Positions 13,204 through 29,391 of a stretch of DNA of 64,000 bases are shown here, in pieces (position 1 is the first letter of the stretch; each line of letters begins with the position of its first letter). The stretch is from an uncultured Collinsella sp. (lineage in GTDB: Bacteria; Actinomycetota; Coriobacteriia; Coriobacteriales; Coriobacteriaceae), in NCBI GenBank assembly GCA_900545165.1, contig UQYA01000002.1, forward strand, positions 2,543-66,542, written 5' to 3'. The notes under the pieces were generated by a model. The model was given only the letters and a program-made list of their open reading frames with translations, was not told the DNA's origin and ran no database searches. The translations under genes were made by a program, and so were the position numbers.

Positions 13204-13264
13204 TGTTCTTTAATTCTCTTCTCGCTAAACTTCCTCACACCAAAGATACGACCGACCTAAGCAC

Positions 13265-14491
13265 TCATCTTGCTCGATAAACCTCGTCTTTGAGCGCAAA
13301 GCTCTTTTTTGGCTTTCCTTTCAAAGTGTTCTTGACCGCACGCTCAAGAACACCTTCCTCAATCATTGGGCCCACATAGGTCTTCAAAATAGTATTGCTT
13401 CTGTCAAAGACTCCGCACTCGGAAATCAACGTGGCAGCAATATCGCCCATTTTCATGTTTTGGTGAACGGGCATATGCTGGACAAAATCACTGGCCTTGG
13501 CCGCAATTACGGCAGTCTCAACATTGCGACCATCAACATCCACCGCAAACAATCCCAACTGCTTGCATTGCCGGTCGAGGTTGCGCTTAATCATGTTATC
13601 GTTCATCAGAACGCAACCGTCTGGGCTATTGGTCATATGGATCATTCTATATTTGACGAGCCCACCGACATTAACGCGTTTACTCATATCTTTGATAGGC
13701 ATATTCGTTACATACTTATAGTAAGAACGCGCGTTGTTGCAAAAGAGTTCCGAGAGCGCATGTTCAGCCTGCCAAGCGTCGATCTCTCCAGCCTTATAAC
13801 GAACGACCACTTCTTTCCAGTTACCACTTCCGATGCAGGCATTCAGACGTTCAACCCAAACGCTGGCTTTCGTGAGCTCATTAAAGTCGTCTTCCGGCAG
13901 TTCAACTTCATTTGGAAGTGACAGTGGCACTTTCATGGCAGCGCAGGCAACGCGGAATAAACCAAAACTATTGAAGTTGACCAGGGCCTCCGTGTGAGCC
14001 ATATTCGGCGAATTAGTTAGAAGATCGAGTCGTAGGTCTTTAACCCCGAATGGATCGATGTAATAGAAGACTGTTGAGGGCTTACCGCCCCCACAAACGC
14101 TAGTTTGTTGTGCCCGTCTTATAGCATCCTCGCAACTGGAAACGATAATTGGCGGCTTGATATAGCCGCTGGCTCCCTTTGCTTCGTTAAATGTCGATTC
14201 GAGATGCTTTCTAGATTCCGCGTTGGATTCACTAAGAATGAACTGGATGGGCGTCTTTGAACGATTTTTCTTTGCAATTGCAAAATACTTAGAAAGGGCA
14301 ATCAAGGGAGATCCTTTACTGCCATCGGCAAATAAACCCGCGCCAGCAAAAGCATCGATATAAAGAATGCCGTTCCGTGAAGGTCGATACACTTTAGTGA
14401 AAAAAGGCGTTAGATAGCATGACAGAAGATCATCCTTAGTCTCAGACCACGGATGTTTTGCCTGAAAGTAATCTGACTGATTTTTTGCCAT
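13265..14491 (-). CDS. tcmP: TcmP-like 'three-Cys-motif partner' protein (Rossmann/methyltransferase-like N-terminus)
   Basis: 408 aa. N-terminus HPWSETKDDLLSCYLTPFF...ILYIDAFAGAGLFADGSKGSPLIAL matches the family signature as I remember it, including an FAGxG motif-I-like loop. It is paired with the three-Cys protein. Confidence 0.55.
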   Translation of the reverse strand: MAKNQSDYFQAKHPWSETKDDLLSCYLTPFFTKVYRPSRNGILYIDAFAGAGLFADGSKGSPLIALSKYFAIAKKNRSKTPIQFILSESNAESRKHLESTFNEAKGASGYIKPPIIVSSCEDAIRRAQQTSVCGGGKPSTVFYYIDPFGVKDLRLDLLTNSPNMAHTEALVNFNSFGLFRVACAAMKVPLSLPNEVELPEDDFNELTKASVWVERLNACIGSGNWKEVVVRYKAGEIDAWQAEHALSELFCNNARSYYKYVTNMPIKDMSKRVNVGGLVKYRMIHMTNSPDGCVLMNDNMIKRNLDRQCKQLGLFAVDVDGRNVETAVIAAKASDFVQHMPVHQNMKMGDIAATLISECGVFDRSNTILKTYVGPMIEEGVLERAVKNTLKGKPKKSFALKDEVYRAR

Positions 14492-14523: not shown

Positions 14524-17500
14524 CTACTTGAACTTCTCCACCAGCAACTGCCCGATGGCGCTCATCATGGCGCGATACTTCTCACTGTCCTCAAAGAGGC
14601 TGGTAAAGGAGTCCGTGTTCTCCACATAGGCGCGGCGAGCCTCTTCATCGAACACCTTGGGCAGCAGGCTTGATTCGAAGACCTGTCTGCCGTCGCGACG
14701 GATGGTGTCGGCGACCTGCGGGTTTTCGGCGATACGCTTCCACAGCGTGTCGATAACCACACGATCTCCCTCGGTGAAGTTGCCAGCCCACTGCTCGTTG
14801 AACTTATCCACGAGCACCTGCAGCGGGTCGCGCTTCTTGTCGGGCGTCACGGTCTTGGCCGCGCCACCGGGATCGAGCACGCCGCCGCCAGGCTCAAGCG
14901 AAATGCTGCCCTCGAACTCTTGCTTGAGCTTGTAGAAGCGCATCTCGACCTTGTCGTCCACCGCCTCGACGGGGATCTTCTCGACCTTGAGGAGGTGGCG
15001 CAGATAGCTCAGATACACGTACTCCTTGTGCAGGTCGCGATCGAACATGCGAACAATCTGGGTGATGTAGGTGTACCACTTGCAGAAGCTACGCACCTTA
15101 CGACGCACCTGATAGCGCGAGTCGTCATCCAGCTCGTTGTAGCGCGAGACCGCAGGCTTCAAAACGGCAGCAAGCTTGCCCTGCACGTTGCCCTGCGGCT
15201 TACCCTTGTCATCCGTGAAGACAATCTCGGCCGCGGCCTCGATGTCGTCCTCGTCGTAGAGTTTGTAGCCGCGAATGTCGGTCTGCACCTGATAGAGGAG
15301 GTCGGTGTTGATCTGCTCGGAAAGCGACGTCTCGGCATAGAAGCGCTCGAACGCCTTCTGGATATCCTCGGGCTTGTTCACAAAGTCGAGGATGTAGGTG
15401 TCCTCCTTGTCCGGATGGATACGGTTGACGCGGCAGAGCGTCTGAACCGCCTTCACGTCCTTGAGCTTCTTGTCCACCACCAGCGTGTGAAGCAGAGGCT
15501 CATCGAAGCCCGTCTGGTACTTCTCGGCGACAACGAGCACGTCACCATAGTTGTGGAACTCGGCCTTCGTTTGGCTCTCGGCGACACGTTGCCCATCGTG
15601 GCCGACGTTGATAGACGGCTCGGTGTACTCGGGACCGTTGGGGCCATCCACGGGGTCGCTGATGGCACCCGAGAACGCCACCAGCACCTCGACGTCGTCG
15701 TAGCCCTTCTTCTGCATGTAGCGCTTGATCTCGTGGTAGTAGCGAACCGTCGCGAGGCGCGAGGCAGTGACCACCATCATCTTGCCCTTGCCGCGGATCT
15801 TGGTGCGCGTAACGTTGCGGAACGTCTCCACGATGAGCTCGGCCTTCTGACCGAGAGCGTAGGGATGCAGCTCCTTGTACTTGCGGAGCAGCTTGAGCGT
15901 GGGGCTGCTGGGCACATCGGGGTTGTCGGGGACCGTGCGCGCGAGCTCGACGGCCTCCGAATAACTCACGTAGTTGGCGAGGGGGTCCATAATGAAGCCC
16001 TCCTCTATCGCCTGGCGCATCGAGTAGACGTGGAACGGGTGGAAGGACCCGTCAGGCCACTCATCGCCGAAGATCTCGAGCGTCTGTTCCTTTGGCGTGG
16101 CGGTAAAGGCAACGAAGGTCAGGTTCTTGTGACGGCCGTGGCTCGCGAGCTCGTCGGCGAGCTGGTCCTCCCAATCGGCTGCGGCGTCCTCGGCTTCCGC
16201 CTCGATCTCAGCGTACTCCTCGAGCGCGTCGCGCTTGTCGGCAAGGGCGCTCTTGAGCTTGAGCGCGCTCGTTCCCGTCTGGGACGAGTGCGCCTCGTCG
16301 ACGATGATGGCGAAGCGCTTACCCTTGCTCTCGACCTGCTCGTAAATCACGGGGAACTTTTGCAGGGTCGAGACGATGAGACGAGCGCCGCCGTTGATGG
16401 CGTCCCGCAGGTCGGCCGAGGTCTTGTCCTTGCCGATGGTCACGACCGAGCCGATGGCGTGGTCGAAGCCCGAGATGGTCTCCTGCAGCTGGCTGTCGAG
16501 AATGCGACGGTCGGTGACGACGACCACGGAGTCGAACAGCGGGGTGTCATCCACAAAGAGGGATGCAAGGCGATAGGCCGTCCAGGCGATGCTGTTAGAC
16601 TTGCCCGACCCCGCCGAATGCTGCACGAGGTAGTTCTTGCCCGTCCCGTTCGCGCGCACGTCGGCGATGACCTTACGCACGGAGTCGAGCTGGTGGTAAC
16701 GGGGGAAGATGATGCGCTCCTTCTTGCGCTTCACCTCGTTGCCGCGCGCATCGAGCTCTGTCTCTTCCTTGACCTCCAGGTGAAGGAACTTGTTGACGAT
16801 ATCGAGCAGGCTGTCCTTCTGCAGGGCGACCTCCCACAAGTGACTCGTGGCATAACCGTCGGGATTTGCGGGGTTGCCGGCGCCGCCGTCGTTTCCCGCC
16901 CCGGCGGAGCCCTGGTTGAACGGCAGGAAGAAGGTCTTCGCGCCCTCCAGCTTGGTGGTCATGTAGACATTTTCGAGATCGACGGCGAAAAATGCCAGCA
17001 TGCGCGCGTTGAACTTGAGACAGCGACACCGTGGATCGCGGTCCTCGCGCCACTGGCGCATGGCGTTCTCGACGTCTTGGCCGGTAAACTGGTCCTTGAG
17101 CTCTATGCCCACCAGGGGGATGCCGTTCACGTCCAGGACCATGTCGATGGTCTGGTTGCCCGTCTCGGCGAAGTGGAACTGGCGGATGCAGCGGCAAACG
17201 TTCTTGGCATAGCGATCGGCGGCGCTTTCGTTAAGACCGCTCTCCGGCTTGAAGAATACAACTTTGAACGGAATTCCTCGGTGCTTGAAGCCGTGTTTGA
17301 GCACTGCAACCATGCCTAGGCGGTCGACGGCGTCGTTGAAGACTTTGGCGAACTTCGCCGTGGAATCGGAGTTGCACATGCGCTCGAAGCGCTCCCAAGC
17401 CTTGGGCTGCGTCGTCTGGATAAAGTTGACCAGAGTCGTAGCGTCGAGCGCGCGGTCGCGGTGTTCCATGTAGCCGCCGCCGACCATCTGATAGGTGCCG

Positions 17501-17616
17501 TCCTCGACGTAGAGGAGCGAATGTTTATCGTCGCACTTAAGGAAACCGCCCGCAGGCGAGCAGAGGAACGACTCTATGTCCTGCTCGAGGTTCTTTTCCT
17601 TTGTCTGCGCAGACAT
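14524..17616 (-). CDS. hsdR: type I restriction endonuclease subunit R
   Basis: 1030 aa. Helicase motif I is QHSAGSGKSNSIAW and the DEAH box is IIVDEAHSSQ. The size and the HsdR N-terminal nuclease region are typical. Confidence 0.9.
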   Translation of the reverse strand: MSAQTKEKNLEQDIESFLCSPAGGFLKCDDKHSLLYVEDGTYQMVGGGYMEHRDRALDATTLVNFIQTTQPKAWERFERMCNSDSTAKFAKVFNDAVDRLGMVAVLKHGFKHRGIPFKVVFFKPESGLNESAADRYAKNVCRCIRQFHFAETGNQTIDMVLDVNGIPLVGIELKDQFTGQDVENAMRQWREDRDPRCRCLKFNARMLAFFAVDLENVYMTTKLEGAKTFFLPFNQGSAGAGNDGGAGNPANPDGYATSHLWEVALQKDSLLDIVNKFLHLEVKEETELDARGNEVKRKKERIIFPRYHQLDSVRKVIADVRANGTGKNYLVQHSAGSGKSNSIAWTAYRLASLFVDDTPLFDSVVVVTDRRILDSQLQETISGFDHAIGSVVTIGKDKTSADLRDAINGGARLIVSTLQKFPVIYEQVESKGKRFAIIVDEAHSSQTGTSALKLKSALADKRDALEEYAEIEAEAEDAAADWEDQLADELASHGRHKNLTFVAFTATPKEQTLEIFGDEWPDGSFHPFHVYSMRQAIEEGFIMDPLANYVSYSEAVELARTVPDNPDVPSSPTLKLLRKYKELHPYALGQKAELIVETFRNVTRTKIRGKGKMMVVTASRLATVRYYHEIKRYMQKKGYDDVEVLVAFSGAISDPVDGPNGPEYTEPSINVGHDGQRVAESQTKAEFHNYGDVLVVAEKYQTGFDEPLLHTLVVDKKLKDVKAVQTLCRVNRIHPDKEDTYILDFVNKPEDIQKAFERFYAETSLSEQINTDLLYQVQTDIRGYKLYDEDDIEAAAEIVFTDDKGKPQGNVQGKLAAVLKPAVSRYNELDDDSRYQVRRKVRSFCKWYTYITQIVRMFDRDLHKEYVYLSYLRHLLKVEKIPVEAVDDKVEMRFYKLKQEFEGSISLEPGGGVLDPGGAAKTVTPDKKRDPLQVLVDKFNEQWAGNFTEGDRVVIDTLWKRIAENPQVADTIRRDGRQVFESSLLPKVFDEEARRAYVENTDSFTSLFEDSEKYRAMMSAIGQLLVEKFK

Positions 17617-17617: not shown

Positions 17618-18181
17618 TTACAGCCTCATCTCTCTCAGCTCACGACCGAAAAGAACGAGCCACGGAAATATGCTCTTGTTTAGCACCATGTACATCTTCG
17701 CGCGCTGCTTTTCTGTCGGCGCCGTCCTCTTGTTGAACATATCCACCATGAACTCGTAATCGTTTCGGCCGTCGTAACCGTTGTACCTATTGGGCGGAAA
17801 AGCACCTTTCTCGTAAAGGAAGGCGTAGAGACATCGAGAGAACAGGTCCCTGTTCATGCCGTCGAGTCGTACGTCCGGCCTTCTTGCCTCGAGGGCCTCC
17901 AGCAACTTGATTGCCGCTTTCCAACCTTCAACCTCGTTCTTGAGCTCATCGTTTTCGAACTTCAGGATGCAGGTTGAGCCTATTGGTGAGAGCTCGTTCC
18001 CGTTGACAGAGTTTTTGATAGTGAACTCATACCTAATGCCCTCGTGTCCGCAAAGACAATCGCCAGAAGCGTCCCCATTGTCACGGCATCCCGTCACGTG
18101 CCATTCGGAGATAGCGGCATCCCACGTTTTTGACGATGACGCTTCCAACACGATGCGAGGGAGACGATAGGAATCACCCAT
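17618..18181 (-). CDS. hypothetical Cys-cluster protein embedded between hsdS and hsdR
   Basis: 187 aa. Gaps are 3 nt to hsdS and 1 nt to hsdR. Cys/His cluster TGCRDNGDASGDCLCGHEGIRYEF...PIGSTCILKF. I recognise no family. Confidence 0.6.
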   Translation of the reverse strand: MGDSYRLPRIVLEASSSKTWDAAISEWHVTGCRDNGDASGDCLCGHEGIRYEFTIKNSVNGNELSPIGSTCILKFENDELKNEVEGWKAAIKLLEALEARRPDVRLDGMNRDLFSRCLYAFLYEKGAFPPNRYNGYDGRNDYEFMVDMFNKRTAPTEKQRAKMYMVLNKSIFPWLVLFGRELREMRL

Positions 18182-21188: not shown

Positions 21189-21395
21189 TTACTTCTCCTT
21201 CTTGGACAGATACTCGATGAGGCTCGTCTTTACGAGAGACGTGAAGCTAACGCCATTGAGAGCAGCCGCCTCCCTAGCGGCGTCGCGCATGTTCTTGGGA
21301 ATGCGGACGGTTACTGCCACGTTCTCGCCGCCCACGAGGAAGCTTCTGAGCTCGCTCGGGGTTGCTTCTCCGTCGATAAGGTCGGCGTACTTCAT
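21189..21395 (-). CDS. ribbon-helix-helix (CopG-like) small protein leading the hsd operon
   Basis: Trimmed to ATG 21395 (GGAGG upstream); 68 aa. The segment VTVRIPKNMRDAAREAAALNGVSFTSLVKTSLIEYL looks like a beta-strand followed by two helices. Its stop lies 2 nt before the hsdM start. Confidence 0.55.
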   Translation of the reverse strand: MKYADLIDGEATPSELRSFLVGGENVAVTVRIPKNMRDAAREAAALNGVSFTSLVKTSLIEYLSKKEK

Positions 21396-21699
21396 GGGAA
21401 CCTCCGCGATTGCATGATGCAATACAAATGCGCCTTTGATTCTAGCAAAGGACTGAAAACTAATAACCGTCTAGCACAGATGGATAGACAAGTAATTAAC
21501 GCAAATAAGAAGGGAGAATAACATTCTGAACCGTCGTCTCTCCCGCCTGAAGGAGCTCGACGAGAACTAGTCGGCAACTCAAAAAGACACCGAGCAAGCC
21601 GCTAACACACTTATCACGTTCCACAAAGAGATGGGTAAGCATGACGCCAGCTTGGGCGAGGGCGCTAATGGCATAGAATTGCAGCCAGACTGCCTGAAC

Positions 21700-24063
21700 C
21701 TATTCATCACTTGTTGCCGGCAAGCTGTTGGGCGGCTCGCTCTCACCGGCGGCACCAAGGTGCTTCTGTATCTTCTCGATTCGCTTAAGGGTTGAAGTCA
21801 AATACCCAAGACCCCTCTTCAACTGCTTAAGCAACCTGCTATCCCTGCGGTCCCCCTTTCCATTCTCCTTCTCGACATCTTCCTCAACACCAGCGATGCT
21901 ACGCTGCACGGCCTCGGCCGCCTTCCGCACCAAAATGGCCCCTTCATGCGGACAGCGGTCAGTTGCCACATCAAGAAAAGCAAGGAGCCTGGAACATTCG
22001 ACGAGCACGAATTGCGCGTAGTTCTCCCCCATCGATGCCGCCAAGGCAACGCCGCCGGAACCCAATAGACCAAGCGCGGCGCCGCCGCCCGTAATCAAAG
22101 CAGTGCCACCGGCCATGCCCATGCCGCCGGCGGCCAAGGCCCCACCGCCAGCTGCAGCAAGGCTCGCATTGACAAGCGCAGCCCCGTGAAGGCCGACAAA
22201 CGAGCCCCCGAAGATACCGACAGCAATATCCGGAGCGAGTACCGCGGCCGCCCCTCCTGCGCCTACGGCCGACGCCACGACAATGACGCCGCCCACCAAA
22301 AGCTTTGGCAATGTACCTGAAAGCTCGCGGAAGCGTGTCCCGCAACGTTTCTCGAGAGAACGTATGGCGTCCAAATCAACCGCGTCTTGTCTCCTGGGAA
22401 ATTCGTGTTTAACCCAAGATTCACTCTCCTTCAAACCTTTGTATTCCTTCTTCTCTTCATCTCCCATCTGGGAATAGGGGCGAAACTCAACCAACTCCTG
22501 TGCAACAAGCAAGGCACGCACTTTACCTCCTCGCCGCCGCGAAACTGTCTCAAGGGCTCCGTACGCATCTTCCTCGCTCAAAAAGTAGCCGTCTGCATCA
22601 ATGCCTAGGCCATCCGCGACCGAATCCTGCCACGCGCGGGCCCAGCTCCTCTTTTGCCCTTTGCGCACTTCGTTCTTCTCGTTCCCGCAGTCGTAGTTGA
22701 TGGCGGCAAGCTTCAGCGAGAAGGCAATCCTCGTCGTTTCTCTATCTAGGCTATAAAAGTGAAATCCATCGAAGATATCCTGGCGGCGCCTGGCGCGCTC
22801 AGTCCAAGCCTCGGACATTTCCTCCGCCATATAGCCCCAGTCGGCATGGAGGGCAAACGCAAGGCGTCCAACTCCAACGTAGTTTATTCGCAAGAAGAGC
22901 TTCTGGGCGAACACGACCTTGTTCCCCTCGCATTCGATACCCGCCCTGACCGCCGCCGTCGCTAGATTCGCCAAAACGAACGAAGTGCTCGAAACCGTGA
23001 CCATGCGGGCGAGAGCTCTGCTGTTGTAGGGCATAAAATGCGAAGCCTTGAGCTTGTGCAAGCCGGAAACCTTGCTCACTTCGCAACGTTCTAGCTCGGC
23101 CTTGAGCCTTGAAAGCATGTAGAGACAACGAACGATAACCTCGTTGGCCACGACTGCTGGCACCTGGCTTAAAGCTTGGTTGAGAAGGCCGACTTCCGTC
23201 CGAAGGTCGAAACGAATGGGCTTGCCGTCCTCGGTTTTGAACGCCGTTCCGTTAAACAGCTTTGAGATCCATTGCTGAATGCGAATATCCTCGCCCTTAT
23301 AGGCAATCTGCATGTCTTGAAAAACAGGCAGGGAGGAGAGCTCCTTTAGCAGGGACAGCACGACGCCGGGAATGCCCGTCCCCTTACCGGGGTTTGAACT
23401 AGACCCCGCCATGTCGCTCACGAGATGCATCGCCCAGAACAGAGTGCCAAACGCGATCTTCTCTGGAACGTTCCTGCCTATAAGAGGGCAGTCGGGATCG
23501 AAGGCGGCGGCAGGCAGGTCAAAGGCGACAAACCGGCCGGCTGTATCGGTACCATAGCCTTTGCCCGTGAATTGCGAGAGGATCGAACACGCAAGGCCAA
23601 CCAAACTCGGGTGGTGCGAGAAATCCCGCAGATGATGTTGGAGCCCGCCGCCAAACTCGGCAGCCAGCTTGTCCGCGGCAAGAGGAAACTCTTTCTCTAG
23701 AAAGCGAATAGCGTCTTCTAGAGTTGCATCCGCCTTTGCCATACCCGCAGACTTGGCAATCGTAAGAACGAATTTGCCAACCTTCTCGTCGCCCCACTCT
23801 TTGGCACCCTCTAGGTTGAAGTCTTTCTGCCAAAGGATATTCAACGCGCCCGTGAGGAGCCCGCTAACGGCTGCAAGTTCATAGTCGAGCTTCGTAGCCT
23901 TTTCAGCCCGAGGGTCAAAATCAAAGAGGACCTCCTCCCCATCGGGAGCGTCCTTAAAACCGACCAGTACGGCGCTACCGTTCAGCGGCGCAGATGTAAC
24001 TTTGGGCAGTTGAGACATGGTGTAGACTATCTCGCCACCACTAAAAACAAGTTCGTCTGCCAT
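21700..24063 (-). CDS. large uncharacterised protein with C-terminal Gly/Ala-rich (glycine-zipper-like) membrane region
   Basis: Track ORF 21700..24225 (GTG start). I prefer ATG 24063 because AGGAGG lies 8 nt upstream, giving 787 aa. A ~95-aa G/A-rich hydrophobic block (about nt 22025-22320) is followed by a charged helical tail. No NTPase or nuclease motif was seen. Confidence 0.6.
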   Translation of the reverse strand: MADELVFSGGEIVYTMSQLPKVTSAPLNGSAVLVGFKDAPDGEEVLFDFDPRAEKATKLDYELAAVSGLLTGALNILWQKDFNLEGAKEWGDEKVGKFVLTIAKSAGMAKADATLEDAIRFLEKEFPLAADKLAAEFGGGLQHHLRDFSHHPSLVGLACSILSQFTGKGYGTDTAGRFVAFDLPAAAFDPDCPLIGRNVPEKIAFGTLFWAMHLVSDMAGSSSNPGKGTGIPGVVLSLLKELSSLPVFQDMQIAYKGEDIRIQQWISKLFNGTAFKTEDGKPIRFDLRTEVGLLNQALSQVPAVVANEVIVRCLYMLSRLKAELERCEVSKVSGLHKLKASHFMPYNSRALARMVTVSSTSFVLANLATAAVRAGIECEGNKVVFAQKLFLRINYVGVGRLAFALHADWGYMAEEMSEAWTERARRRQDIFDGFHFYSLDRETTRIAFSLKLAAINYDCGNEKNEVRKGQKRSWARAWQDSVADGLGIDADGYFLSEEDAYGALETVSRRRGGKVRALLVAQELVEFRPYSQMGDEEKKEYKGLKESESWVKHEFPRRQDAVDLDAIRSLEKRCGTRFRELSGTLPKLLVGGVIVVASAVGAGGAAAVLAPDIAVGIFGGSFVGLHGAALVNASLAAAGGGALAAGGMGMAGGTALITGGGAALGLLGSGGVALAASMGENYAQFVLVECSRLLAFLDVATDRCPHEGAILVRKAAEAVQRSIAGVEEDVEKENGKGDRRDSRLLKQLKRGLGYLTSTLKRIEKIQKHLGAAGESEPPNSLPATSDE

Positions 24064-24158
24064 ACCGGCTTCCTCCTGCAAACGCGTAAAATCAGATTGC
24101 TCTACGCCGCCAAATCCCTCTTCGTAGAAGTATTCGAAAATCTCGGTGATGCAGTTGC

Positions 24159-24434
24159 TCAGAACCTCGTCGGGATAGTTCGCCACTGGCAGCCTATACA
24201 CCTCATTGTGCACGATAACGCACACAGCGTCACGGGTCTCTGCCTATCCGTCCAGCGAATCATGTTAGCAAGCCGCTCTTCGATAATGGAAGCCATTTCG
24301 ATGTCCACGCTCTTGACCTGCTTGGTCTCGGCGGGCGTCAGCGTGTCCTTGAATAGCATCTCAAGCACAGCCCTCTGATGCTGATTCTGGAATCCTTCCC
24401 GCAACCATTCCTTCTGCTTGCGCCCAATGGGCAC
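24159..24434 (-). CDS. small hypothetical protein (91 aa) between the exonuclease and the large protein
   Basis: GTG 24434 with GAGGGGAGG 8 nt upstream, inside the end of the exonuclease gene (4-nt gap). The C-terminal tail is Cys-rich (CALSCTMRCIGC). The last 67 nt overlap the long version of the next ORF. Confidence 0.4.
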   Translation of the reverse strand: MPIGRKQKEWLREGFQNQHQRAVLEMLFKDTLTPAETKQVKSVDIEMASIIEERLANMIRWTDRQRPVTLCALSCTMRCIGCQWRTIPTRF

Positions 24435-24438
24435 CCGC

Positions 24439-25173
24439 CTACCTCCCCTCCGCTTTCAGCTTCAGCAGTAAATCGCCCAGCTCGGGGCACTTGCTGGAAA
24501 GGCGCGTCTGGGCTCGCTCGCCTATCCCCCATCGTTGGCGGATCTCCTGGGCGTGCGGACTCACGTGATAGTCCCCCTCCATCATCTGCTTGAGCAGCTT
24601 GGCGGTCACGCGCGCATCGGCTAGGGCACTGTGGGCGTAGCCCGTCGACTCATCAAACTCGATGCCAAACCACGCCGCCGCGTCACTCAAAGAGACGCAC
24701 CCGTGGCTGCCCACGTCCATGATCGAGGTGTAAAACGCCTGCAGGTCGGCCCAGTCCGTAGGAAATGCGGAAAGGTCGATGTGTTTTGCCTGGCACTCAG
24801 TCAAAAGCTGTCGACGGTCCGTCCCGCTCCAGCAAACTATCTGGGCGGAGTAGCGACCGATCCAATCGCTGAGCCTTTTGATCACCATGTAGAGCGGATC
24901 GGCCATCGCGGTGTCCACAGCCGATATCCCTGTAAGCTCGCGGACGGGGAACACAACGCCTTCGGTAAATTCCGTCTGCACAAACTGCGAAAACTCGCCC
25001 ATAACGTTGCCGTGGTAATCGAGTTTGACGGCGCCGACCTCGATAATCTCATGGCGCAGTCCACGGCGCTGGCGCTGCTTTGGCACCGGCGCAAACTCAA
25101 AGTCCAGCACAATCTGGCGCGCAAAGTTCGTCGTATCGATAGCCGAGATGCACGGCGTCTTTTCAGCTGACAC
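24439..25173 (-). CDS. DEDDh-type 3'-5' exonuclease (ERI-1/KapD-like)
   Basis: 244 aa. Exo I is VLDFEF, Exo II is CWSGTDRRQL and Exo III is HSALADARV. It is the first gene of a three-gene operon. Confidence 0.8.
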   Translation of the reverse strand: MSAEKTPCISAIDTTNFARQIVLDFEFAPVPKQRQRRGLRHEIIEVGAVKLDYHGNVMGEFSQFVQTEFTEGVVFPVRELTGISAVDTAMADPLYMVIKRLSDWIGRYSAQIVCWSGTDRRQLLTECQAKHIDLSAFPTDWADLQAFYTSIMDVGSHGCVSLSDAAAWFGIEFDESTGYAHSALADARVTAKLLKQMMEGDYHVSPHAQEIRQRWGIGERAQTRLSSKCPELGDLLLKLKAEGR

Positions 25174-25635
25174 GGTTAGGGCCTTTCTCCGTCAACTGCC
25201 GCTTGTTACATAAGCGACTACATTGCCGTAAGGATAGGCGCCCGTGCGGACACAAAAGCGGGGCGCAACGCCATGCGCCGGTCGCACGCCATGCAGACCG
25301 CCCCAAGAGAGTCGCCCGCTCTATTCAAATACATGAAAAAGATTTAGGCCCGGTGACTTGAATCAGCGGTCATCCCGAGCCCATCAATATGCAGTGTACC
25401 TACAGAGGGCTGGTTAATCAAACGGGCTTTCGGTGACGAAGACCTGCGCGTCTATCCCCAATCGCCCAGCGTCGTCTTCTGCCGCCCTTACGAAAGGCTG
25501 CTATTCGAGGGAATCACGTTGCTGTTATTATCGAACATATATTCGTATTTATGACCGCGCTTTGATAGAATGGCAGTTGTTGACGGCAGTTCCATGTGCC
25601 GGGCAGCGCCCTCCATGCGACGGGAGGTGATGCCC

Positions 25636-25761
25636 ATGACCGATCTGATTGATTTCGTGAAGCTCCTGACCGCTTCGGTCTCGCTCCTCACGGCGCTTAT
25701 CGGACTTACCGAGGCACTCAAGCAGCGTACGAAGCAGAAAAAGAGGGGTCGACGCCTCTAA
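25636..25761 (+). CDS. 41-aa hydrophobic peptide with Lys/Arg tail (holin-like / type I toxin-like architecture)
   Basis: MTDLIDFVKLLTASVSLLTALIGLTEALKQRTKQKKRGRRL. GGGAGG lies 8 nt before ATG 25636. An extended -10-like TGATAGAAT sits at about 25560-25568. Confidence 0.4.
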   Translation: MTDLIDFVKLLTASVSLLTALIGLTEALKQRTKQKKRGRRL

Positions 25762-25919
25762 GGCATTGACCCCTTAATCGAAGTAACGGCGCTGCCCAGC
25801 TATCACCCTTGGGCTGCCGTCGACCTTATTCTACCCACGGGTGCCAGGTTTAACAAATGGATTTTCGGTTACGAAGTCCGGAGCTCGCCCCTCTACTCCA
25901 GCGGCGTTGCGCCGGATTC

Positions 25920-26018
25920 TGGGACGTGCTTTCCGCTCCAGGCCTCTACCGGAAAATGCGTTCCACTCTGAGGCCGAAATCTGGGACGCGCTTTCCGCCA
26001 AAGGGAAAGCGCGTCCCA
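25920..26018. repeat. ~62-bp dyad tandem repeat, array A (~1.6 units)
   Basis: TGGGACgtgcTTTCCG (25920) and CCGGAAAatgcGTTCCA (25949). TGGGACGCGCTTTCC-gccaaag-GGAAAGCGCGTCCCA (25982-26018) is a perfect 15-bp hairpin. The array shares an identical 24-mer (25963-25986) with array B (27702-27725). Confidence 0.8.
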
Positions 26019-26047: not shown

Positions 26048-27439
26048 TTATCTCCGCTCGCACATCTCGGCAAACGAAATCAGCTTGGCATCTCCCCTAC
26101 TCTCCGCGGCATCCCGACATCCCTGCGTAAAGCCGCTTTTTGAGAAAAGCGCATAGCTTTTATGCTGCCGCCTAAAAAGCTCGCTTCGGTACACGAGCTT
26201 TTCCAGAACATCCTCGCCTACCGGTTCATTGCGCCATTTGCACTCCGCAAACAGCGCAGCGCCCTCGCCATCGTCAACAATCAAGTCGATTTCTTCCTGC
26301 GTATGCGTGCGATTATCCGTCCCCCACCAGCGCCCAACGCTTGCCGGAACCACATCGAGCTGGCCCGCGCGTGCGAGTTCGTACACGTATTGCCTGCATA
26401 TAAGCTCAAAGACCGTGCCCATGTAATCCGATACGTGCGGCTCAATGCGCTCATACGCCATCTCGGCCATATCGTTTTGAATCAGCCCGATGTTCTGCGG
26501 AACAAACTTGTACCAGAACCTAAACATCTGATCGCTCAGCAGATACACGGCTCGCTTATTGCTCGTCTCGTTTAGGGGCAGCTCGCGCTCGACAATCCCA
26601 AGCGACGCCAGCTTATCCACATAGCTCTTTACGTTGCTCGCAGGGATTCCCGTAGAGCTCGCAATCTCCGAGATCTTCGAGCGCCCCTGAGCAATTGCTT
26701 GCACGATCGCATCATATTGCTCGGGATTGCGGCACTCTTGCAATAGCAGGTTACTCGGCTCTTCAAAGAGATAACCCGTAGGGGTAAGAAAAAGACGCTT
26801 GATGTTGTCCTTGAGCGATACGGTAGGATCGACTTTCTCGATATATGCAGGAATGCCGCCCATCATGCCATAGCAAACCGCAGCGTCTTCGCGACCCATG
26901 CTCTGCCACAGGCCGAGGGTCGTCGTAAAATCGAGCGGCATGATCTTAAACTGGGCCGTACGCCTACCGTATAGTGGACTCTCGTAGCTCAACACCTGCT
27001 CTTCCATGAACGAAAGCGACGACCCGCACAGGATAAGCATGAGCTTGGTCTCTTTGTACAGGTGATCGATCTTATCTTGCAGCAACGAGCTGATCTCGGG
27101 ATTCGATTGGGCGAGATAGGGATACTCGTCAATCACGACAATCAAACGTTCCGCGCGAGCCATGGTGGCCAATGCATCGAACGCCTCGTCAAAACTACGA
27201 AACGACACGCCAGCAACACCAACGGAGCCCGCAAGTATCGCCTGGCTAAAGCCATGCAGGTTTGCCTCTGCATTGGTACGACGAGCTTGAAAGTAAATAG
27301 CCTTCTTGCCTTGGATGAACTCTGTGATAAGACGCGTTTTGCCCACGCGACGGCGGCCGTAAATCACAGGCATCTCAAAGGAGCCCGTGCCATACAGTCG
27401 ATTGAGCTCGGACATTTCCGCTGTTCTTCCGATAAACAT
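26048..27439 (-). CDS. AAA-type ATPase with DUF234-like C-terminus (Arch_ATPase family)
   Basis: 463 aa. Walker A is GRRRVGKT and Walker B-like is LIVVIDEYPY. There is a wHTH-like middle segment. The C-terminus EIDLIVDDGEG..LFAECKW resembles a PD-(D/E)xK motif. Confidence 0.8.
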   Translation of the reverse strand: MFIGRTAEMSELNRLYGTGSFEMPVIYGRRRVGKTRLITEFIQGKKAIYFQARRTNAEANLHGFSQAILAGSVGVAGVSFRSFDEAFDALATMARAERLIVVIDEYPYLAQSNPEISSLLQDKIDHLYKETKLMLILCGSSLSFMEEQVLSYESPLYGRRTAQFKIMPLDFTTTLGLWQSMGREDAAVCYGMMGGIPAYIEKVDPTVSLKDNIKRLFLTPTGYLFEEPSNLLLQECRNPEQYDAIVQAIAQGRSKISEIASSTGIPASNVKSYVDKLASLGIVERELPLNETSNKRAVYLLSDQMFRFWYKFVPQNIGLIQNDMAEMAYERIEPHVSDYMGTVFELICRQYVYELARAGQLDVVPASVGRWWGTDNRTHTQEEIDLIVDDGEGAALFAECKWRNEPVGEDVLEKLVYRSELFRRQHKSYALFSKSGFTQGCRDAAESRGDAKLISFAEMCERR

Positions 27440-27456
27440 AGGGCCATCCTTCCTTT

Positions 27457-27508
27457 ACGTTATAGCTAGCTATATTATATCTTCCTATAATATAGCTAGC
27501 TATAACGT
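27457..27508. promoter_or_regulatory. 23-bp perfect inverted repeat (6-bp spacer) immediately upstream of the ATPase gene
   Basis: ACGTTATAGCTAGCTATATTATA-tcttcc-TATAATATAGCTAGCTATAACGT. It lies 18 nt upstream of the start codon at 27439 and contains TATAAT on both strands. Confidence 0.5.
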
Positions 27509-27563
27509 AATTCGACAAGCGGCGCACGCAAAAGGGTCGGTACACCACCGCACGTGGACCGTT

Positions 27564-27798
27564 CCGGAAAATGTATCCCGTTCTGGAGCCAAAAACTGGG
27601 CCGTAGTTTCCGCCAAGCATGCCATCCGGAAAGTGCGTCCCACCCCGAGGCTCGATTCCGGGACGCAGTTTCCGTTTGAGGCCCGATCTGGAAACGGCAT
27701 CCCACTCTGAGGCCGAAATCTGGGATGTAGTTTCCGCTTGAAGGGCGATCCGGAAAGCACGTCCCATTCCGAGTGGCAATTCCGGGTCACAGTTTCCG
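27564..27798. repeat. ~62-bp dyad tandem repeat, array B (~3.8 units)
   Basis: CCGGAAA-N5-TCCC elements at 27564, 27626, 27688 and 27749 alternate with GGGAC-N4-TTTCCG elements at 27597, 27659, 27720 and 27783. Confidence 0.85.
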
Positions 27799-28093
27799 CA
27801 GACACAGACGACGACCTGCAGCCCTTATCACATGCCTTCAAATATACGATCCAGAGACACAAAACAGCAGATAGAATGCTCTTTTTCAAAAAAGTACACG
27901 TCCCGATACTTACCCAGTCTTCATAACTCGCTACCGTTCAAGGTCGCCGATTACCGCCCACCGATTCAGCTTCAAAAAATGACGTCAAAACCAGGCCATC
28001 TACCTGCATGGTTAGATTTTGGTCAGCTTTTGGTCAGCTGAGCGGCAAGTTCCAGTTGATACGTTTTTGCTACCCAAAAGGAGGCGGTAGCTC

Positions 28094-29092
28094 ATGACCC
28101 ATTGCAATGACCAACTCATCGACCAGCTGTTGAACCAAGCCGAACAAGAGGGGCGCTGTCTGATTCCCCCGAGCGCGGCGATCCGAAAAGCGCTCCTTCG
28201 GCGCACCGGCGGCACGGTTGTCTCGCCCATGCCGGGGTTGTTTGCGCGAAAAACGCGCTGGGATGAACTCAACCGAGCGCAACGCCATTGCGAGACTATC
28301 CGCGCCCTTGCGATCATCCATCCCGATTGGACGTTCTGCTCGTTTTCGGCAGCTTGCCTGCTGGGGCTCGAGGTCTCGTGGCGACACCTGAACGTCGTGC
28401 ATGTTTGCAGCTCGATAAAGCCGTCGGCTCGTCCGGGCGCACATATTCAGCAACACCAGATCGAGCCGGCCGGAGCAATACGCAGAGCCGGCATATCGGT
28501 AACGCCGCCCATCCAAACGGCCACAGATTGCCTGCTGCAAACTGGTTTTGCCGACGGCATGCCCATTGCCGATTCGGCGATCTCAAAGCTCGGCCTTACG
28601 CGAGAGCAGTTGATGGAGGCCGTCGAGCAACGAGCGACCGCCCGCAATGGTCGCGCGATTCGCACCGCCCTCACCACGCTTCGATATGCCGACGCCCGCG
28701 CCGAGAGCGGCGGGGAATCGGTCGCCCGAGCCGTCATGATCGAGACGGGCTTTGCGCCCGACTGGCTTCAATACGAGCTGACGGACCCCTTCGATTCGGC
28801 CAAGCCCATACGAACGGACTTTGCCTGGGAGCGCCAGGCGCGGGAACTCACGCTGGGCGAGCTCGACGGGCTCATCAAATATACCGACCAGACCATGCTG
28901 GCCGGACGCACCACCGCCGAGGCGCTCGTTGCCGAACGACAGCGCGAGGCGCACCTATCGCTCTACGGCCACCCTCTGCTGCGCTTTACCATGAACGAGG
29001 TCCGCTCGGCAGGAATGCTCGCCAAAAAGCTGCAGACGGCAGGCATCCGACAGACCGCTCTACCGACATGGCTCAACGAGGTGGACCTGTAG
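28094..29092 (+). CDS. hypothetical protein: AbiEi-like N-terminus plus DUF559/Vsr-like endonuclease-fold C-terminus
   Basis: 332 aa. AAAGGAGG lies upstream of ATG 28094. The N-terminus has ..SPMPGLFARK.. and ..CSFSAACLLGLEV. The C-terminus (ESGGESVARAVMIETGF..., PIRTDFAW, GELDGLIKY) fits the DUF559 pattern as I remember it. Confidence 0.55.
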   Translation: MTHCNDQLIDQLLNQAEQEGRCLIPPSAAIRKALLRRTGGTVVSPMPGLFARKTRWDELNRAQRHCETIRALAIIHPDWTFCSFSAACLLGLEVSWRHLNVVHVCSSIKPSARPGAHIQQHQIEPAGAIRRAGISVTPPIQTATDCLLQTGFADGMPIADSAISKLGLTREQLMEAVEQRATARNGRAIRTALTTLRYADARAESGGESVARAVMIETGFAPDWLQYELTDPFDSAKPIRTDFAWERQARELTLGELDGLIKYTDQTMLAGRTTAEALVAERQREAHLSLYGHPLLRFTMNEVRSAGMLAKKLQTAGIRQTALPTWLNEVDL

Positions 29093-29127
29093 GAGCTGTT
29101 GAGCTTATGCCCGTCTGCTTGGCAAAG

Positions 29128-29391
29128 CGGGACACACTTTCCGGTTGGCAGCACCCGCGGAAACCAGGGCCCAGATTGAGTGTTCAAAACGGGGTGCGCT
29201 TTCCATATGGCATGCCTAGCGGAAACCGTGTCCCGGAATCAAGGCCTAGAACGGGACAGACTTTCCGGTTGAAGCGCCCAGCGGAAACTGCATCCCGGAA
29301 TAGACGCTCAAACTGGGACGCAGTTTCCGGTTTCCTGCTGTTCCGGAAAGTACGTCCCATTCTGAGCGCCAAATCCGGGACACAGTTTCCG
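29128..29391. repeat. ~62-bp dyad tandem repeat, array C (~4.3 units)
   Basis: GGGAC-N4-TTTCCG elements at 29128, 29190, 29252, 29314 and 29376 alternate with CGGAAA-N5-TCCC elements at 29157, 29219, 29281 and 29343. Orientation is the same as arrays A and B. Confidence 0.85.

What the first reader, a model, noticed from the sequence alone, without database searches (positions are those of the whole stretch)
21700..25173. Uncharacterised three-gene operon (DEDDh exonuclease, 91-aa protein, ~790-aa Gly-zipper membrane protein) next to the type I R-M system: candidate new defence module
- **Gene arrangement:** three co-directional genes are tightly coupled. There is a 4-nt gap between the first two, and the ribosome-binding site of gene 2 lies inside the end of gene 1.
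- **Exonuclease:** gene 1 has clear ExoI/II/III motifs (VLDFEF, CWSGTDRRQL, HSALADARV).
- **Large protein:** I see no NTPase, nuclease or protease motif. It has several hydrophobic segments. It also has a ~95-residue Gly/Ala-rich block (GGVIVVASAVGAGGAAAVL...GGGALAAGGMGMAGGTALITGGGAALGLLGSGG). That block resembles glycine-zipper membrane-perturbing effectors, and a charged helical tail follows it.
- **Context:** the operon sits in an AT-richer island between a type I R-M operon and a toxin-like peptide gene. I cannot match the trio to any named defence system I know.
Basis: partly seen in the sequence, partly recalled or inferred. Interest (0 to 1): 0.75.

Follow-up and report, generated by a model that had tools for sequence, protein, structure and literature searches.

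The report
Fused Bunzi-like membrane defence gene
The proposed three-gene operon is really one candidate anti-phage gene (a single-protein fusion of a two-gene, Bunzi-related system), a dead fragment of a restriction gene, and an unrelated conserved exonuclease gene that marks the edge of a defence island in the gut bacterium Collinsella aerofaciens.

Summary
All three ORFs exist on the minus strand, but they are not a conserved trio.

- **Exonuclease (24439-25173):** a real DEDDh enzyme. It is a conserved Collinsella aerofaciens flank gene. In other strains the same gene, in the same left flank, is followed by quite different defence cargo, and homology stops 5 nt after its stop codon.
- **"Gene 2" (24159-24434):** not a gene. 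It is the frameshifted last ~120 codons of a type I restriction hsdR. That hsdR is intact directly upstream of the large gene in other Collinsella genomes.
- **Large gene:** it starts at the ATG at 24063 (787 aa, not 841).
  - Residues ~42-430 are a BnzB-core domain (BnzB is a component of the validated Bunzi system).
  - Residues ~581-678 are a glycine-zipper block homologous to PADLOC candidate PDC-M09A.
  - On a Lactiplantibacillus plasmid and in a gut phage, these two parts are adjacent separate genes.
- **Context:** the gene sits beside restriction, BREX and GmrSD genes in several genera, always without the exonuclease.

Most likely it is a stand-alone, infection-triggered membrane-perturbing defence protein. 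This mechanism is inferred, not shown. It is a new variant of a known kind and of moderate interest.

The parts
24439..25173 (-). DEDDh 3'-5' exonuclease gene (244 aa, GTG start). It is the conserved left-flank gene of the defence-island hotspot and is not part of the large gene's system.
   Evidence: - Pfam RNase_T E = 4e-10, 40.9 bits against a cut-off of 24. NCBIfam KapD E = 6.5e-20 but 71.5 bits against a cut-off of 169.
- 35 of 51 substitutions against L011 are at third codon positions.
- Copies 95% identical sit in C. aerofaciens contigs L012-L019 in the same left flank but with different downstream cargo.
- Window/L012 homology ends at 24434.
24064..24434 (-). Relic of the 3' end (~120 codons) of a type I restriction hsdR.
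   Evidence: - 85-86% nucleotide identity to the end of the intact 1042-aa hsdR of L007, L050, L080 and L081, which lies 38 nt upstream of the large gene there.
- A 1-nt deletion near 24245/24246 is shared by 77 of 80 Collinsella loci.
- A 1-nt insertion near 24121/24122 is present in 34. It puts the old stop (TAG, 24102-24104) out of frame.
- Three loci carry further 8-10-nt or small frameshifting deletions.
- Substitutions show no codon-position bias.
- It has no protein family match.
24072..24077 (-). AGGAGG ribosome-binding site, 8 nt upstream of the ATG at 24061-24063 of the large gene.
   Evidence: - Read directly from the sequence.
- The segment is conserved in the loci that have an intact hsdR upstream.
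21700..24063 (-). The large gene: 787 aa, a single-chain BnzB-core plus PDC-M09A-type glycine-zipper protein.
   Evidence: - Homologues are 787/788 aa.
- The ORF is intact at 787 codons in 76 of 78 Collinsella loci, and 60% of differences are at third codon positions.
- More than 2567 homologues were found in the word-indexed search. The profile search found 4286 50%-identity clusters at E <= 1e-3.
22774..23940 (-). BnzB-core domain (residues ~42-430). Invariant motifs are GGGLQHHLRDFSHHP, HL(V/I)SDMAGSS..PG.GTGIPG and RFDLRTE.
   Evidence: - PADLOC BnzB E = 1e-31 for the window protein. All 29 family members match, best 4.7e-43.
- BLASTP against the validated L. animalis BnzB: 25% identity over 220 residues, E = 4e-13.
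- Many ~490-540-aa proteins match only this part of the profile and are BnzB by PADLOC.
- AF2 domain model: pLDDT 75.5, pTM 0.65, mostly helical. No match in PDB or BFVD.
22324..22773 (-). Helical linker region (residues ~431-580) with no recognisable family.
   Evidence: - AF2 secondary structure.
- No Pfam or PADLOC match.
22030..22323 (-). Glycine-zipper, predicted membrane-embedded block (residues ~581-678; 27% Gly, 25% Ala; many small-xxx-small repeats).
   Evidence: - It is the only strongly hydrophobic stretch by Kyte-Doolittle hydropathy.
- hhalign of the family against PDC-M09A (L106/L108): 98% probability, E = 2.4e-13, 52% identity over 65 columns.
- PADLOC PDC-M09A matches family members, best 2.6e-15, but the window protein alone scores only E = 1.7.
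- hhalign against the BnzA Gly-rich block gives only 62% probability.
- AF2 pLDDT is below 30 here.
21700..22029 (-). Charged helical C-terminal tail (residues ~679-787, 17 K/R and 17 D/E) plus the stop codon.
   Evidence: - AF2 predicts helices 681-703, 705-734 and 742-772 with pLDDT 66-85.
- Residue composition.
- In relatives such as P0244 the PDC-M09A match extends through the tail.

Best explanation
**Setting (shown).** The window comes from Collinsella aerofaciens or a very close relative. The finding lies at the left edge of a defence-island hotspot.

**The three pieces (shown)**
- The DEDDh exonuclease gene is the last conserved chromosomal gene before the variable cargo.
- The 370 nt after it are the decayed 3' end of a type I hsdR. 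That fragment travelled with the large gene when an [hsdR - large gene] block recombined into this site.
- The only cargo unit in the finding is the 787-aa gene, which has its own ribosome-binding site.

**Architecture of the large protein (shown)**
- It joins in one chain what are elsewhere two adjacent genes.
- The first part is a BnzB-core domain, as in BnzB of the validated Bunzi system.
- The second part is a PDC-M09A-type glycine-zipper membrane module with a helical tail.

**Mechanism (inferred)**
- The protein is anchored in, or inserts into, the cytoplasmic membrane through the Gly-zipper helices.
- The BnzB-core domain keeps it inactive until it senses an infection cue.
- The Gly-zipper helices then oligomerise and perturb or permeabilise the membrane.
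- The infected cell stops growing or dies before phage are released (abortive-infection logic).

The protective function, the membrane activity and the trigger are all inferred.
For: **Homology**
- PADLOC BnzB hit: E = 1e-31 for the window protein, all 29 family members.
- BLASTP against the experimentally verified L. animalis BnzB: E = 4e-13.
- hhalign against PDC-M09A: 98% probability, E = 2.4e-13.

**Split versions of the same architecture**
- A BnzB-like 480-aa gene is followed after 1 nt by a 369-aa PDC-M09A gene (PADLOC 1e-100 and 2e-70). This occurs on an L. plantarum plasmid and in gut phage NatCom_3357.
- A natural BnzB-BnzA fusion also exists (P0378).

**BnzB-core always has a membrane partner in the cases examined**
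- BnzA with a Gly-rich transmembrane block.
- PDC-M09A.
- A tail-anchored coiled-coil protein on a viral contig.

**Defence context**
- In Collinsella, six different downstream cargo sets all carry restriction or related genes.
- Elsewhere the gene follows hsdR (L007), AbiH-SIR2-PglZ-BrxL (L009) or GmrSD_N (L005), or lies near AAA_21/RloB (L002-L004).

**Independence from the exonuclease, and relic status of ORF2:**

**The gene is under purifying selection and intact:**

**Published background:** Bunzi was proposed to act in membrane surveillance (Millman et al., bioRxiv 10.1101/2022.05.11.491447).
Against: **No direct evidence of function**
- There is no experimental evidence for this protein or for PDC-M09.
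- Bunzi's own mechanism is unknown.
- A lactococcal Bunzi gave no protection against the phages tested (PMC11381338).

**Differences from Bunzi**
- The TerB domain that characterises BnzA is absent.
- The window protein on its own does not reach significance against PDC-M09A (E = 1.7; no hit for the C-terminal half alone).

**Weak structural support**
- The Gly-rich block is low-complexity, so its membrane topology is only predicted.
- The full AF2 model is mediocre (pLDDT 64).
- No structural neighbour was found.

**Context is not uniform**
- Some contexts show no recognisable defence genes: Arcanobacterium L100/L101, the P0081 loci, and the Schaalia core-like position.

**Transcription is unresolved**
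- About 75 of 80 Collinsella loci keep the exonuclease-relic-large gene adjacency.
- No terminator is predicted between the exonuclease and the large gene.
- Read-through co-transcription with the exonuclease therefore cannot be excluded.
Confidence: 0.6

Rival explanations
1. One reading: exonuclease, 91-aa protein and large membrane protein form one three-component defence operon.
For: - The three ORFs are co-directional with tight spacing.
- About 75 of 80 Collinsella loci keep the adjacency.
- The exonuclease gives domain-level PADLOC hits to a Cas-associated DEDDh model (1.9e-13) and PDC-S48 (7.3e-10).
- No terminator is predicted between the genes.
Against: - The 91-aa ORF is a frameshifted hsdR fragment with further independent lesions in some strains. 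It shows no coding substitution pattern.
- The exonuclease keeps its place when the cargo is entirely different.
- The large gene occurs without the exonuclease in Collinsella and in all other genera examined.
- The shared junction and shared 1-nt deletion show the adjacency stems from one ancestral insertion, not repeated selection.
Confidence: 0.04
2. The large protein is a guard attached to type I restriction-modification, in the manner of PrrC within the prr locus. On this view it is a suicide effector released when a phage inhibits the neighbouring restriction enzyme, rather than an autonomous sensor.
For: - In L007, L050, L080 and L081 the gene starts 38 nt after hsdR of a complete type I system.
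- The window keeps a relic of that hsdR upstream.
- A second, different type I system starts 277 nt downstream.
- 15 of 74 loci have that system downstream, and 6 have another type I system.
- The PrrC precedent is from my own knowledge of the literature.
Against: - In 49 of 74 Collinsella loci the neighbour is GmrSD, not type I R-M.
- In other genera the neighbours are BREX, GmrSD_N or no defence gene at all.
- The gene persists intact after its hsdR partner decayed.
- Split homologues on plasmids and phage have no R-M next to them.
Confidence: 0.12
3. The large protein is not an immune protein. It is an envelope or membrane stress or maintenance protein that happens to lie in variable regions.
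For: - In Schaalia it sits at a fixed place between an esterase gene and a UDG gene in all four loci shown.
- The Arcanobacterium and P0081 contexts have no recognisable defence genes.
- No enzymatic effector domain is recognisable.
- Bunzi homologues sometimes give no protection.
Against: - It is homologous to a component of a system that did protect B. subtilis (marked verified in Millman et al., supplementary file 11).
- It is repeatedly adjacent to restriction, BREX, SIR2 and AbiH genes in unrelated taxa.
- It occurs on mobilisable plasmids, a phage and viral contigs.
- Its distribution is patchy and strain-variable within C. aerofaciens.
Confidence: 0.15
4. The exonuclease and the large gene are unrelated in origin but have become a functional pair in Collinsella through read-through transcription. 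For example, the exonuclease might degrade phage nucleic acid while the membrane protein acts as a back-up.
For: - The adjacency is stable in about 75 of 80 loci.
- No predicted terminator lies in the 370-nt relic.
Against: - The terminator and promoter scans are uninformative: counts do not exceed the shuffled controls.
- The large gene has its own strong ribosome-binding site, and that upstream segment is conserved with the hsdR-linked versions.
- The exonuclease is equally conserved where the large gene is absent.
Confidence: 0.08

Closest known systems
Bunzi (BnzA + BnzB; Millman et al. 2022, verified for the Ligilactobacillus animalis system expressed in Bacillus subtilis)
   Same: - Residues ~42-430 are homologous to the core of BnzB, covering PADLOC profile positions ~148-499 of 504 across the family.
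- The motifs HH..(R/K)....H.P..GL, H..SD.AGSS and G.G.P are shared.
- Like BnzA, the protein carries a Gly/Ala-rich hydrophobic block followed by a helical tail.
- It has a defence-island context.
   Different: - It is one gene, not two.
- It has no TerB domain and no BnzA N-terminal region.
- The first ~150 residues of BnzB (a coiled-coil region) are missing.
- The Gly block aligns with BnzA only weakly (62% probability).
- Only the BnzB model is hit, so I infer that a rule requiring both Bunzi genes would not call it. PADLOC and DefenseFinder themselves were not run.
PADLOC candidate system PDC-M09 (PDC-M09A + PDC-M09B), and the BnzB-like + PDC-M09A gene pairs on Lactiplantibacillus plasmids and phage NatCom_3357
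   Same: - Same two modules in the same order: a BnzB-like protein, then a Gly-zipper protein.
- The Gly-zipper core is clearly homologous: LSGAA.T.A.LAW.GGG.LA.GG.GMA, hhalign 98%, E = 2.4e-13.
   Different: - Here the two are fused into one 787-aa chain with a ~150-residue helical linker.
- The window protein alone is too diverged to reach significance against the PDC-M09A model (E = 1.7) and does not hit PDC-M09B.
- PDC-M09 is only a computational candidate. I found no paper on it.
Type II Thoeris ThsA (Macro domain + transmembrane helices)
   Same: - Some relatives of this family (P0244, P0288) carry an N-terminal Macro domain on the same BnzB-core/Gly-zipper body.
- That gives a ligand-binding domain joined to a membrane element, as described for type II ThsA (bioRxiv 10.64898/2026.01.22.701046).
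   Different: - No sequence homology to ThsA was tested or claimed.
- The window protein has no Macro domain.
- There is no TIR partner nearby.
KapD / RNase T-type DEDDh exonucleases (for gene 1)
   Same: - The ExoI, ExoII and ExoIII motifs with the His variant are present.
- Pfam RNase_T scores above its cut-off.
   Different: - It scores below the KapD equivalog cut-off (71.5 against 169 bits).
- Its function is unknown.
- It is a species-conserved flank gene rather than island cargo.

Membership tests
Bunzi defence system | A BnzB homologue is present | tested here: met
   - PADLOC PDLC03834: E = 1e-31 for the window protein, best stretch residues 55-243 against profile 159-353 of 504. All 29 family members match, best 4.7e-43.
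- BLASTP against L. animalis BnzB: E = 4e-13.
- The N-terminal ~150 positions of the BnzB profile are not covered.
Bunzi defence system | A BnzA gene (TerB-domain membrane protein) lies adjacent to bnzB | tested here: not met
   - The neighbours are the exonuclease, the hsdR relic, a 77-aa DUF6290-like ORF and hsdM.
- No protein in A1 hits BnzA.
Bunzi defence system | A TerB domain is present somewhere in the system | tested here: not met
   - No TerB or other Pfam family is found in any of the 29 family members at E <= 10.
- hhalign against a BnzA family alignment aligns only 39 columns of the Gly-rich block, at 62% probability.
Bunzi defence system | A Gly/Ala-rich transmembrane block with a helical tail, as in BnzA | tested here: inconclusive
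   - An analogous block is present.
- Homology to BnzA's block is weak (E = 7.5e-5, 62% probability).
Bunzi defence system | Protects against phage | not testable with these tools
   This needs cloning and phage challenge.
PADLOC candidate PDC-M09 | A PDC-M09A-type glycine-zipper protein or module | tested here: met
   - Met at family level: hhalign A1 against A4 gives 98% probability, E = 2.4e-13.
- PADLOC models PDLC04406/PDLC04407 match family members, best 2.6e-15.
- The window protein alone scores E = 1.7, and its C-terminal half alone gives no hit.
PADLOC candidate PDC-M09 | A PDC-M09B protein or module | tested here: inconclusive
   - The window protein and its family hit BnzB, not PDC-M09B.
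- The plasmid and phage BnzB-like partners of PDC-M09A hit PDC-M09B only weakly, at E = 0.005-0.014.
PADLOC candidate PDC-M09 | Two separate adjacent genes | tested here: not met
   It is a single 787-codon ORF, intact in 76 of 78 Collinsella loci.
DEDDh (RNase T / DnaQ-like) exonuclease (gene 1) | ExoI (DxE), ExoII (D) and ExoIII (H-x4-D) motifs, and a domain score above the family cut-off | tested here: met
   - The motifs VLDFEF, CWSGTDRRQL and HSALADARV are in the sequence.
- Pfam RNase_T scores 40.9 bits against a cut-off of 24.
KapD equivalog (NCBIfam NF005838) | Score above the curated equivalog cut-off | tested here: not met
   71.5 bits against a cut-off of 169.
Type I restriction HsdR (for "gene 2") | Homology to HsdR and an intact reading frame | tested here: not met
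   - It is homologous only to the last ~120 codons of an intact 1042-aa HsdR.
- It is truncated at the 5' side at the junction with the exonuclease flank.
- It carries two frameshifts.
- It is therefore a pseudogene fragment.

The most novel reading that the evidence does not exclude
The BnzB-core / glycine-zipper family, including Bunzi, could be a membrane effector family wired to ADP-ribose chemistry.

- I screened only relatives that carried extra sequence, among the 150 best 50%-identity representatives. Eight had a recognisable extra domain.
- Five of those eight are ADP-ribose-binding or -hydrolysing domains of three unrelated folds: Macro (2), microbial PARG (2) and ADP-ribosylglycohydrolase (1). 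They are attached at either end of the same body.
- This could mean the family senses phage-made ADP-ribosylation or an ADP-ribose-derived signal and answers at the membrane.
- The domain-less 787-aa form in this window would then respond to the same cue through its BnzB-core domain or through a partner acting in trans.
Probability: 0.15. Interest if true: 0.7.

Novelty: new variant of a known kind. Interest (0 to 1): 0.42.

Why it matters
- **An unannotated family.** The family is large: 4286 clusters at 50% identity match at E <= 1e-3. The fused form is unnamed: the window protein and the 28 close relatives checked match no Pfam family, the window protein matches no NCBIfam family, and sources name the listed homologues only "hypothetical protein". 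By inference it would be missed by defence finders that need two genes.
- **A link between three things.** The fusion ties together Bunzi (validated, mechanism unknown), PDC-M09 (an untested candidate) and this one-gene form. It says BnzB-type and Gly-zipper proteins act together, probably as one physical unit at the membrane.
- **A simpler handle on Bunzi-type immunity.** It gives a one-gene construct to test, with clear motifs to mutate.
- **A hotspot map.** The analysis defines a defence-island hotspot in a common human gut bacterium, with a conserved exonuclease gene as its left landmark.
- **A cautionary example.** A perfectly "coupled" small ORF with a ribosome-binding site can be a fossil of a neighbouring gene.

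Tried and rejected
**Searches that found nothing for the large protein**
- Pfam, NCBIfam and PHROGS.
- PDB sequence search with the family profile: 0 hits at E <= 10.
- Foldseek of the full model against PDB: best E = 0.18.
- Foldseek of the better N-domain model against PDB and BFVD: best E = 0.12, TM-score <= 0.17.

**Ideas tested and dropped**
- *The C-terminal half is a BnzA/TerB relative.* Rejected: BLASTP gave only weak, composition-driven hits, and hhalign aligned only the Gly block.
- *ORF91 and the 54-codon extension are one frameshifted small gene of the operon.* Replaced by the hsdR-relic explanation once L007, L050 and L081 were aligned.
- *The relic is a copy of the window's own hsdR (14524-17616).* Rejected: the C-termini are unrelated.
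- *The 100% identical stretch 24016-24296 between the window and L011 is a conserved regulatory element.* Not pursued: divergence along the whole island is mosaic.
- *The BnzB-core domain is an ADP-ribosyltransferase.* This occurred to me because of the hydrolase fusions, but I did not adopt it. The model is mostly helical and nothing supports an ART fold.

**Uninformative or empty**
- Promoter and terminator scans: counts did not exceed shuffled controls.
- Literature search for PDC-M09: no papers.
- Literature search for glycine-zipper defence effectors: nothing directly relevant.

Full report
**1. What is at the coordinates**

- 24439-25173 (244 aa)
- 24159-24434 (91 aa, GTG start)
- 21700-24225 (841 aa from a GTG) or 21700-24063 (787 aa from an ATG)

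The 4-nt gap and the purine-rich stretch in the end of ORF1 are there. The DEDDh motifs are there, and Pfam RNase_T scores above its cut-off (40.9 against 24 bits). KapD is the best NCBIfam model but falls far below its equivalog cut-off.

The large protein has no Pfam, NCBIfam or meaningful PHROGS match. It has one strongly hydrophobic stretch, residues 581-675, which is 27% Gly and 25% Ala. The region lies in a lower-GC stretch of the window.

**2. The large protein is not unmatched**

PADLOC's model for BnzB, one of the two proteins of the Bunzi system, hits it at E = 1e-31. It hits all 29 aligned relatives, with a best E of 4.7e-43.

I took the Bunzi protein sequences from supplementary file 11 of Millman et al. 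(bioRxiv 10.1101/2022.05.11.491447). There the Ligilactobacillus animalis system is marked as verified. BLASTP of the window protein against that BnzB gives 25% identity over 220 residues, E = 4e-13. The shared motifs are HH..(R/K)....H.P..GL and H..SD.AGSS...G.G.P.

The family is large:
- More than 2567 homologues were found in the word-indexed search, nearly all 787-788 aa and all "hypothetical".
- The exhaustive profile search found 4286 50%-identity clusters at E <= 1e-3.

That search shows the architecture is modular:
- Many ~490-540-aa proteins match only profile positions ~40-430. PADLOC calls them BnzB.
- The ~770-800-aa proteins match end to end.

**3. The C-terminal half**

The same 29 relatives also hit the PADLOC candidate model PDC-M09A (best 2.6e-15) over the Gly-rich block and tail. 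The window protein alone reaches only E = 1.7.

tblastn against plasmids and phages found BnzB-core relatives on 23 plasmids and one phage. Three of these records were then looked at in detail:
- **Split form.** On a Lactiplantibacillus plantarum plasmid (L106) and in gut phage NatCom_3357 (L108), a 480-aa BnzB-like gene (PADLOC BnzB 1e-100) is followed after 1 nt by a 369-aa gene that is PDC-M09A (2e-70).
- **Canonical form.** On Lactococcus lactis p267C (L107), canonical BnzA (4e-125) precedes BnzB (2.7e-150).

Profile-profile comparisons separate the two possible relatives of the C-terminal half:
- Family against the two PDC-M09A proteins: 98% probability, E = 2.4e-13, 52% identity over 65 columns of the Gly-zipper core (LSGAA.T.A.LAW.GGG.LA.GG.GMA).
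- Family against a BnzA family alignment: only 39 columns of the Gly block align, at 62% probability, and there is no TerB signal. Pfam finds no TerB in any member.

So the 787-aa protein is a single-chain fusion of a [BnzB-like + PDC-M09A] gene pair. That pair is itself a sister arrangement of Bunzi's [BnzA + BnzB]. A natural BnzB-BnzA fusion also exists (P0378).

**4. "Gene 2" is a fossil**

A genome scan returned 368 relatives. The best 80 are all Collinsella, at 88-99% identity. In three of these loci (L050, L080, L081), and in the metagenome loci L007 and L008, the large gene lies 38 nt downstream of an intact 1042-aa hsdR of a complete type I system.

Aligning the DNA shows the following:
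- Window positions 24064-24420 are the 3' end of that hsdR.
- The ORF91 peptide (...KQKEWLREGFQNQ...IIEERLANMIRWTD) is the HsdR C-terminal region.
- After a 1-nt deletion near 24245/24246 the true frame continues as ...AETRDAV.VIV.NEVY.LP...YPDEVL..CITEIF.YFYE.
- That continuation is the "N-terminal extension" of the 841-aa ORF.
- A 1-nt insertion near 24121/24122 then throws the old TAG (24102-24104) out of frame, so the reading runs into the large gene's ATG.

Across 80 loci:
- 77 share the deletion.
- 34 also have the insertion.
- Three have additional 8-10-nt or small frameshifting deletions.
- The three with no lesion are the ones with the whole hsdR.

Substitutions in the ORF91 region show no codon-position bias (2/5/5), unlike the exonuclease (9/7/35). 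The large gene therefore starts at the ATG at 24063, behind AGGAGG (24072-24077).

**5. The exonuclease is a flank gene**

Its close homologues fall in clusters with thousands of member sequences. Some are named [quoted passage not shown].

For one 95%-identical copy, eight contigs (L012-L019) show the same left flank: aldehyde/xanthine oxidoreductase, a 332-aa gene, an ATPase_2/DUF234 gene, a 55-aa gene, then the exonuclease. Downstream they carry a 436-aa hypothetical, GmrSD, and a ResIII/RE_endonuc protein plus an N6_N4 methylase. They have no large gene.

blastn between the window and L012 stops at window position 24434, 5 nt past the exonuclease stop codon. So the exonuclease/relic boundary is the island junction. 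The apparent translational coupling of genes 1 and 2 is an accident of where recombination occurred.

**6. The site is a defence hotspot, and the large gene keeps defence company elsewhere**

Downstream of the large gene, 74 Collinsella loci fall into six cargo classes of 49, 15, 6, 2, 1 and 1 loci:
- GmrSD plus AAA_14/DUF4143 (49)
- The window's type I system (15)
- Another type I system (6)
- An Eco57I-type methylase plus ResIII (2)
- An OLD-like ATPase/TOPRIM plus an Eco57I-type methylase (1)
- A 1963-aa helicase with REase_MTES_1575 (1)

In other taxa the gene:
- follows AbiH, SIR2, PglZ and BrxL (L009);
- follows GmrSD_N (L005);
- sits near a variable AAA_21/RloB pair in Schaalia (L002-L004).

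Not every context is defence-like. The Arcanobacterium loci and the P0081 loci show hypotheticals, transposases and a GH25 gene. Five IMG/VR viral contigs carry relatives. On one of them (L110) a BnzB-like gene is followed by a coiled-coil protein with a C-terminal membrane anchor.

The gene is under purifying selection. It is intact at 787 codons in 76 of 78 loci, and 60% of differences are at third codon positions.

**7. Structure**

- The full AF2 model is mediocre: pLDDT 64, pTM 0.43. The Gly block has pLDDT below 30.
- The BnzB-core domain alone models better: pLDDT 75.5, pTM 0.65. It is mostly helical with two small hairpins.
- Neither model has a neighbour in PDB or BFVD.
- The family profile finds nothing in PDB sequences.
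- The fold of the BnzB core is therefore uncharacterised.

**8. How it most likely works**

*Shown:*
- The architecture: a BnzB core, a helical linker, a Gly-zipper hydrophobic block and a charged helical tail.
- Its equivalence to a split two-gene unit.
- The BnzB core had a membrane-anchored partner in every arrangement examined: BnzA, PDC-M09A or a tail-anchored coiled coil.
- The defence-island habit.

*Inferred:*
- The Gly-zipper helices sit in the membrane.
- The cytoplasmic BnzB core holds them inactive until it detects an infection cue.
- Oligomerisation then perturbs the membrane and aborts the infection.

Millman et al. suggested membrane surveillance for Bunzi. A 2025 preprint states that the role of TerB proteins in such systems is still unclear. 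A lactococcal Bunzi protected against none of the phages tested, so specificity may be narrow.

My confidence in each part:
- Architectural and evolutionary conclusions: about 0.9.
- A defence role: about 0.6.
- The membrane-perturbation mechanism: about 0.35.

**9. A lead from relatives**

I screened only relatives that carried extra sequence, among the 150 best representatives. The recognisable extra domains were:
- Macro (P0244, P0288)
- Microbial PARG (P0254 at the N-terminus, P0272 at the C-terminus)
- ADP-ribosylglycohydrolase (P0387)
- Peptidase_M48 (P0329)
- OmpA (P0367)
- BnzA (P0378)

Five of the eight bind or hydrolyse ADP-ribose, and they belong to three unrelated folds. Type II Thoeris ThsA is a precedent for a Macro domain joined to membrane helices in a defence effector. 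This hints at an ADP-ribose-linked trigger for the family. The window protein lacks such a domain, and I did not test the idea further.

**10. Verdict**

- The "new three-gene defence module" is not supported.
- What remains is a single-gene, fused variant of the Bunzi/PDC-M09 kind. It sits at the edge of a Collinsella defence hotspot and carries a fossil of the type I restriction gene it once followed.
- This is a new variant of a known kind and of moderate interest.

Noticed in passing
Relatives P0244, P0288, P0254, P0272, P0387 (also P0329, P0367, P0378): - Relatives of the large protein carry fused Macro, microbial PARG or ADP-ribosylglycohydrolase domains at the N- or C-terminus.
- These are three unrelated folds with ADP-ribose-binding or -hydrolysing activity.
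- Other fusions are Peptidase_M48, OmpA and BnzA.
   Followed up: partly
window 27548-27802 and 25915-26001; also 27455-27510: - A tandem array with a 62-nt period (at least 4 copies, 61-76% identical) lies on one side of the ATPase_2/DUF234 gene (26048-27439). One related copy lies on the other side. The units contain GGAAA...TTTCCG.
- Next to the array is a perfect 25-nt inverted repeat with a 6-nt spacer.
- The nature of these elements is unknown.
   Followed up: no
window 25570-25761 (+): - A 63-aa ORF has a hydrophobic helix and a basic tail (...LLTASVSLLTALIGLTEALKQRTKQKKRGRRL).
- It has no Pfam match.
- A 55-aa gene is called at the corresponding place in L012-L019.
   Followed up: partly
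window 21189-21422 (-) and L007 260-466, L050/L080/L081 ~215-475: - A 68-77-aa ORF with a weak DUF6290 match (ribbon-helix-helix-like by my reading) heads the type I R-M operon.
- It is found at the head of both type I lineages (93-99% nucleotide identity), even where hsdM, hsdS and hsdR differ.
   Followed up: no
window 17618-18181 (-); L007 3524-4837: - An unannotated gene sits between hsdS and hsdR: 187 aa here, and 437 aa in the other type I lineage.
- The window copy has no Pfam family, and none is on record for the L007 one. It may be an accessory component.
   Followed up: no
window 24016-24296 vs L011: - These 281 nt spanning the relic and the large-gene start are 100% identical between the window and L011.
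- The exonuclease and the rest of the relic differ by about 7-8%.
- Divergence along the whole island is mosaic, which suggests frequent recombination.
   Followed up: partly
window ~27600-29250 and ~25750-26000 vs L011: - The left flank itself is variable.
- The window has about 1.65 kb (including a 332-aa ORF with no family) that is absent from L011.
- L011 has about 2.4 kb extra (an AAA_14/DUF4143 ATPase and a SIMPL protein) between the ATPase gene and the exonuclease.
   Followed up: partly
L110 4799-8542 (IMG/VR viral contig): Another BnzB-core arrangement: a 324-aa putative regulator, a 520-aa BnzB-like protein, and a 382-aa repeat-rich coiled-coil protein with a single C-terminal membrane anchor.
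   Followed up: no
window 12430-14491 (-): - A 408-aa protein with no family and a 257-aa radical SAM protein lie just downstream of hsdR, inside the low-GC island.
- They may be further island cargo.
   Followed up: no
window 10446-11763 (-): A pair of overlapping DUF4230 ORFs (213 and 246 aa; they share 65 nt) lies in the lowest-GC part of the island.
   Followed up: no
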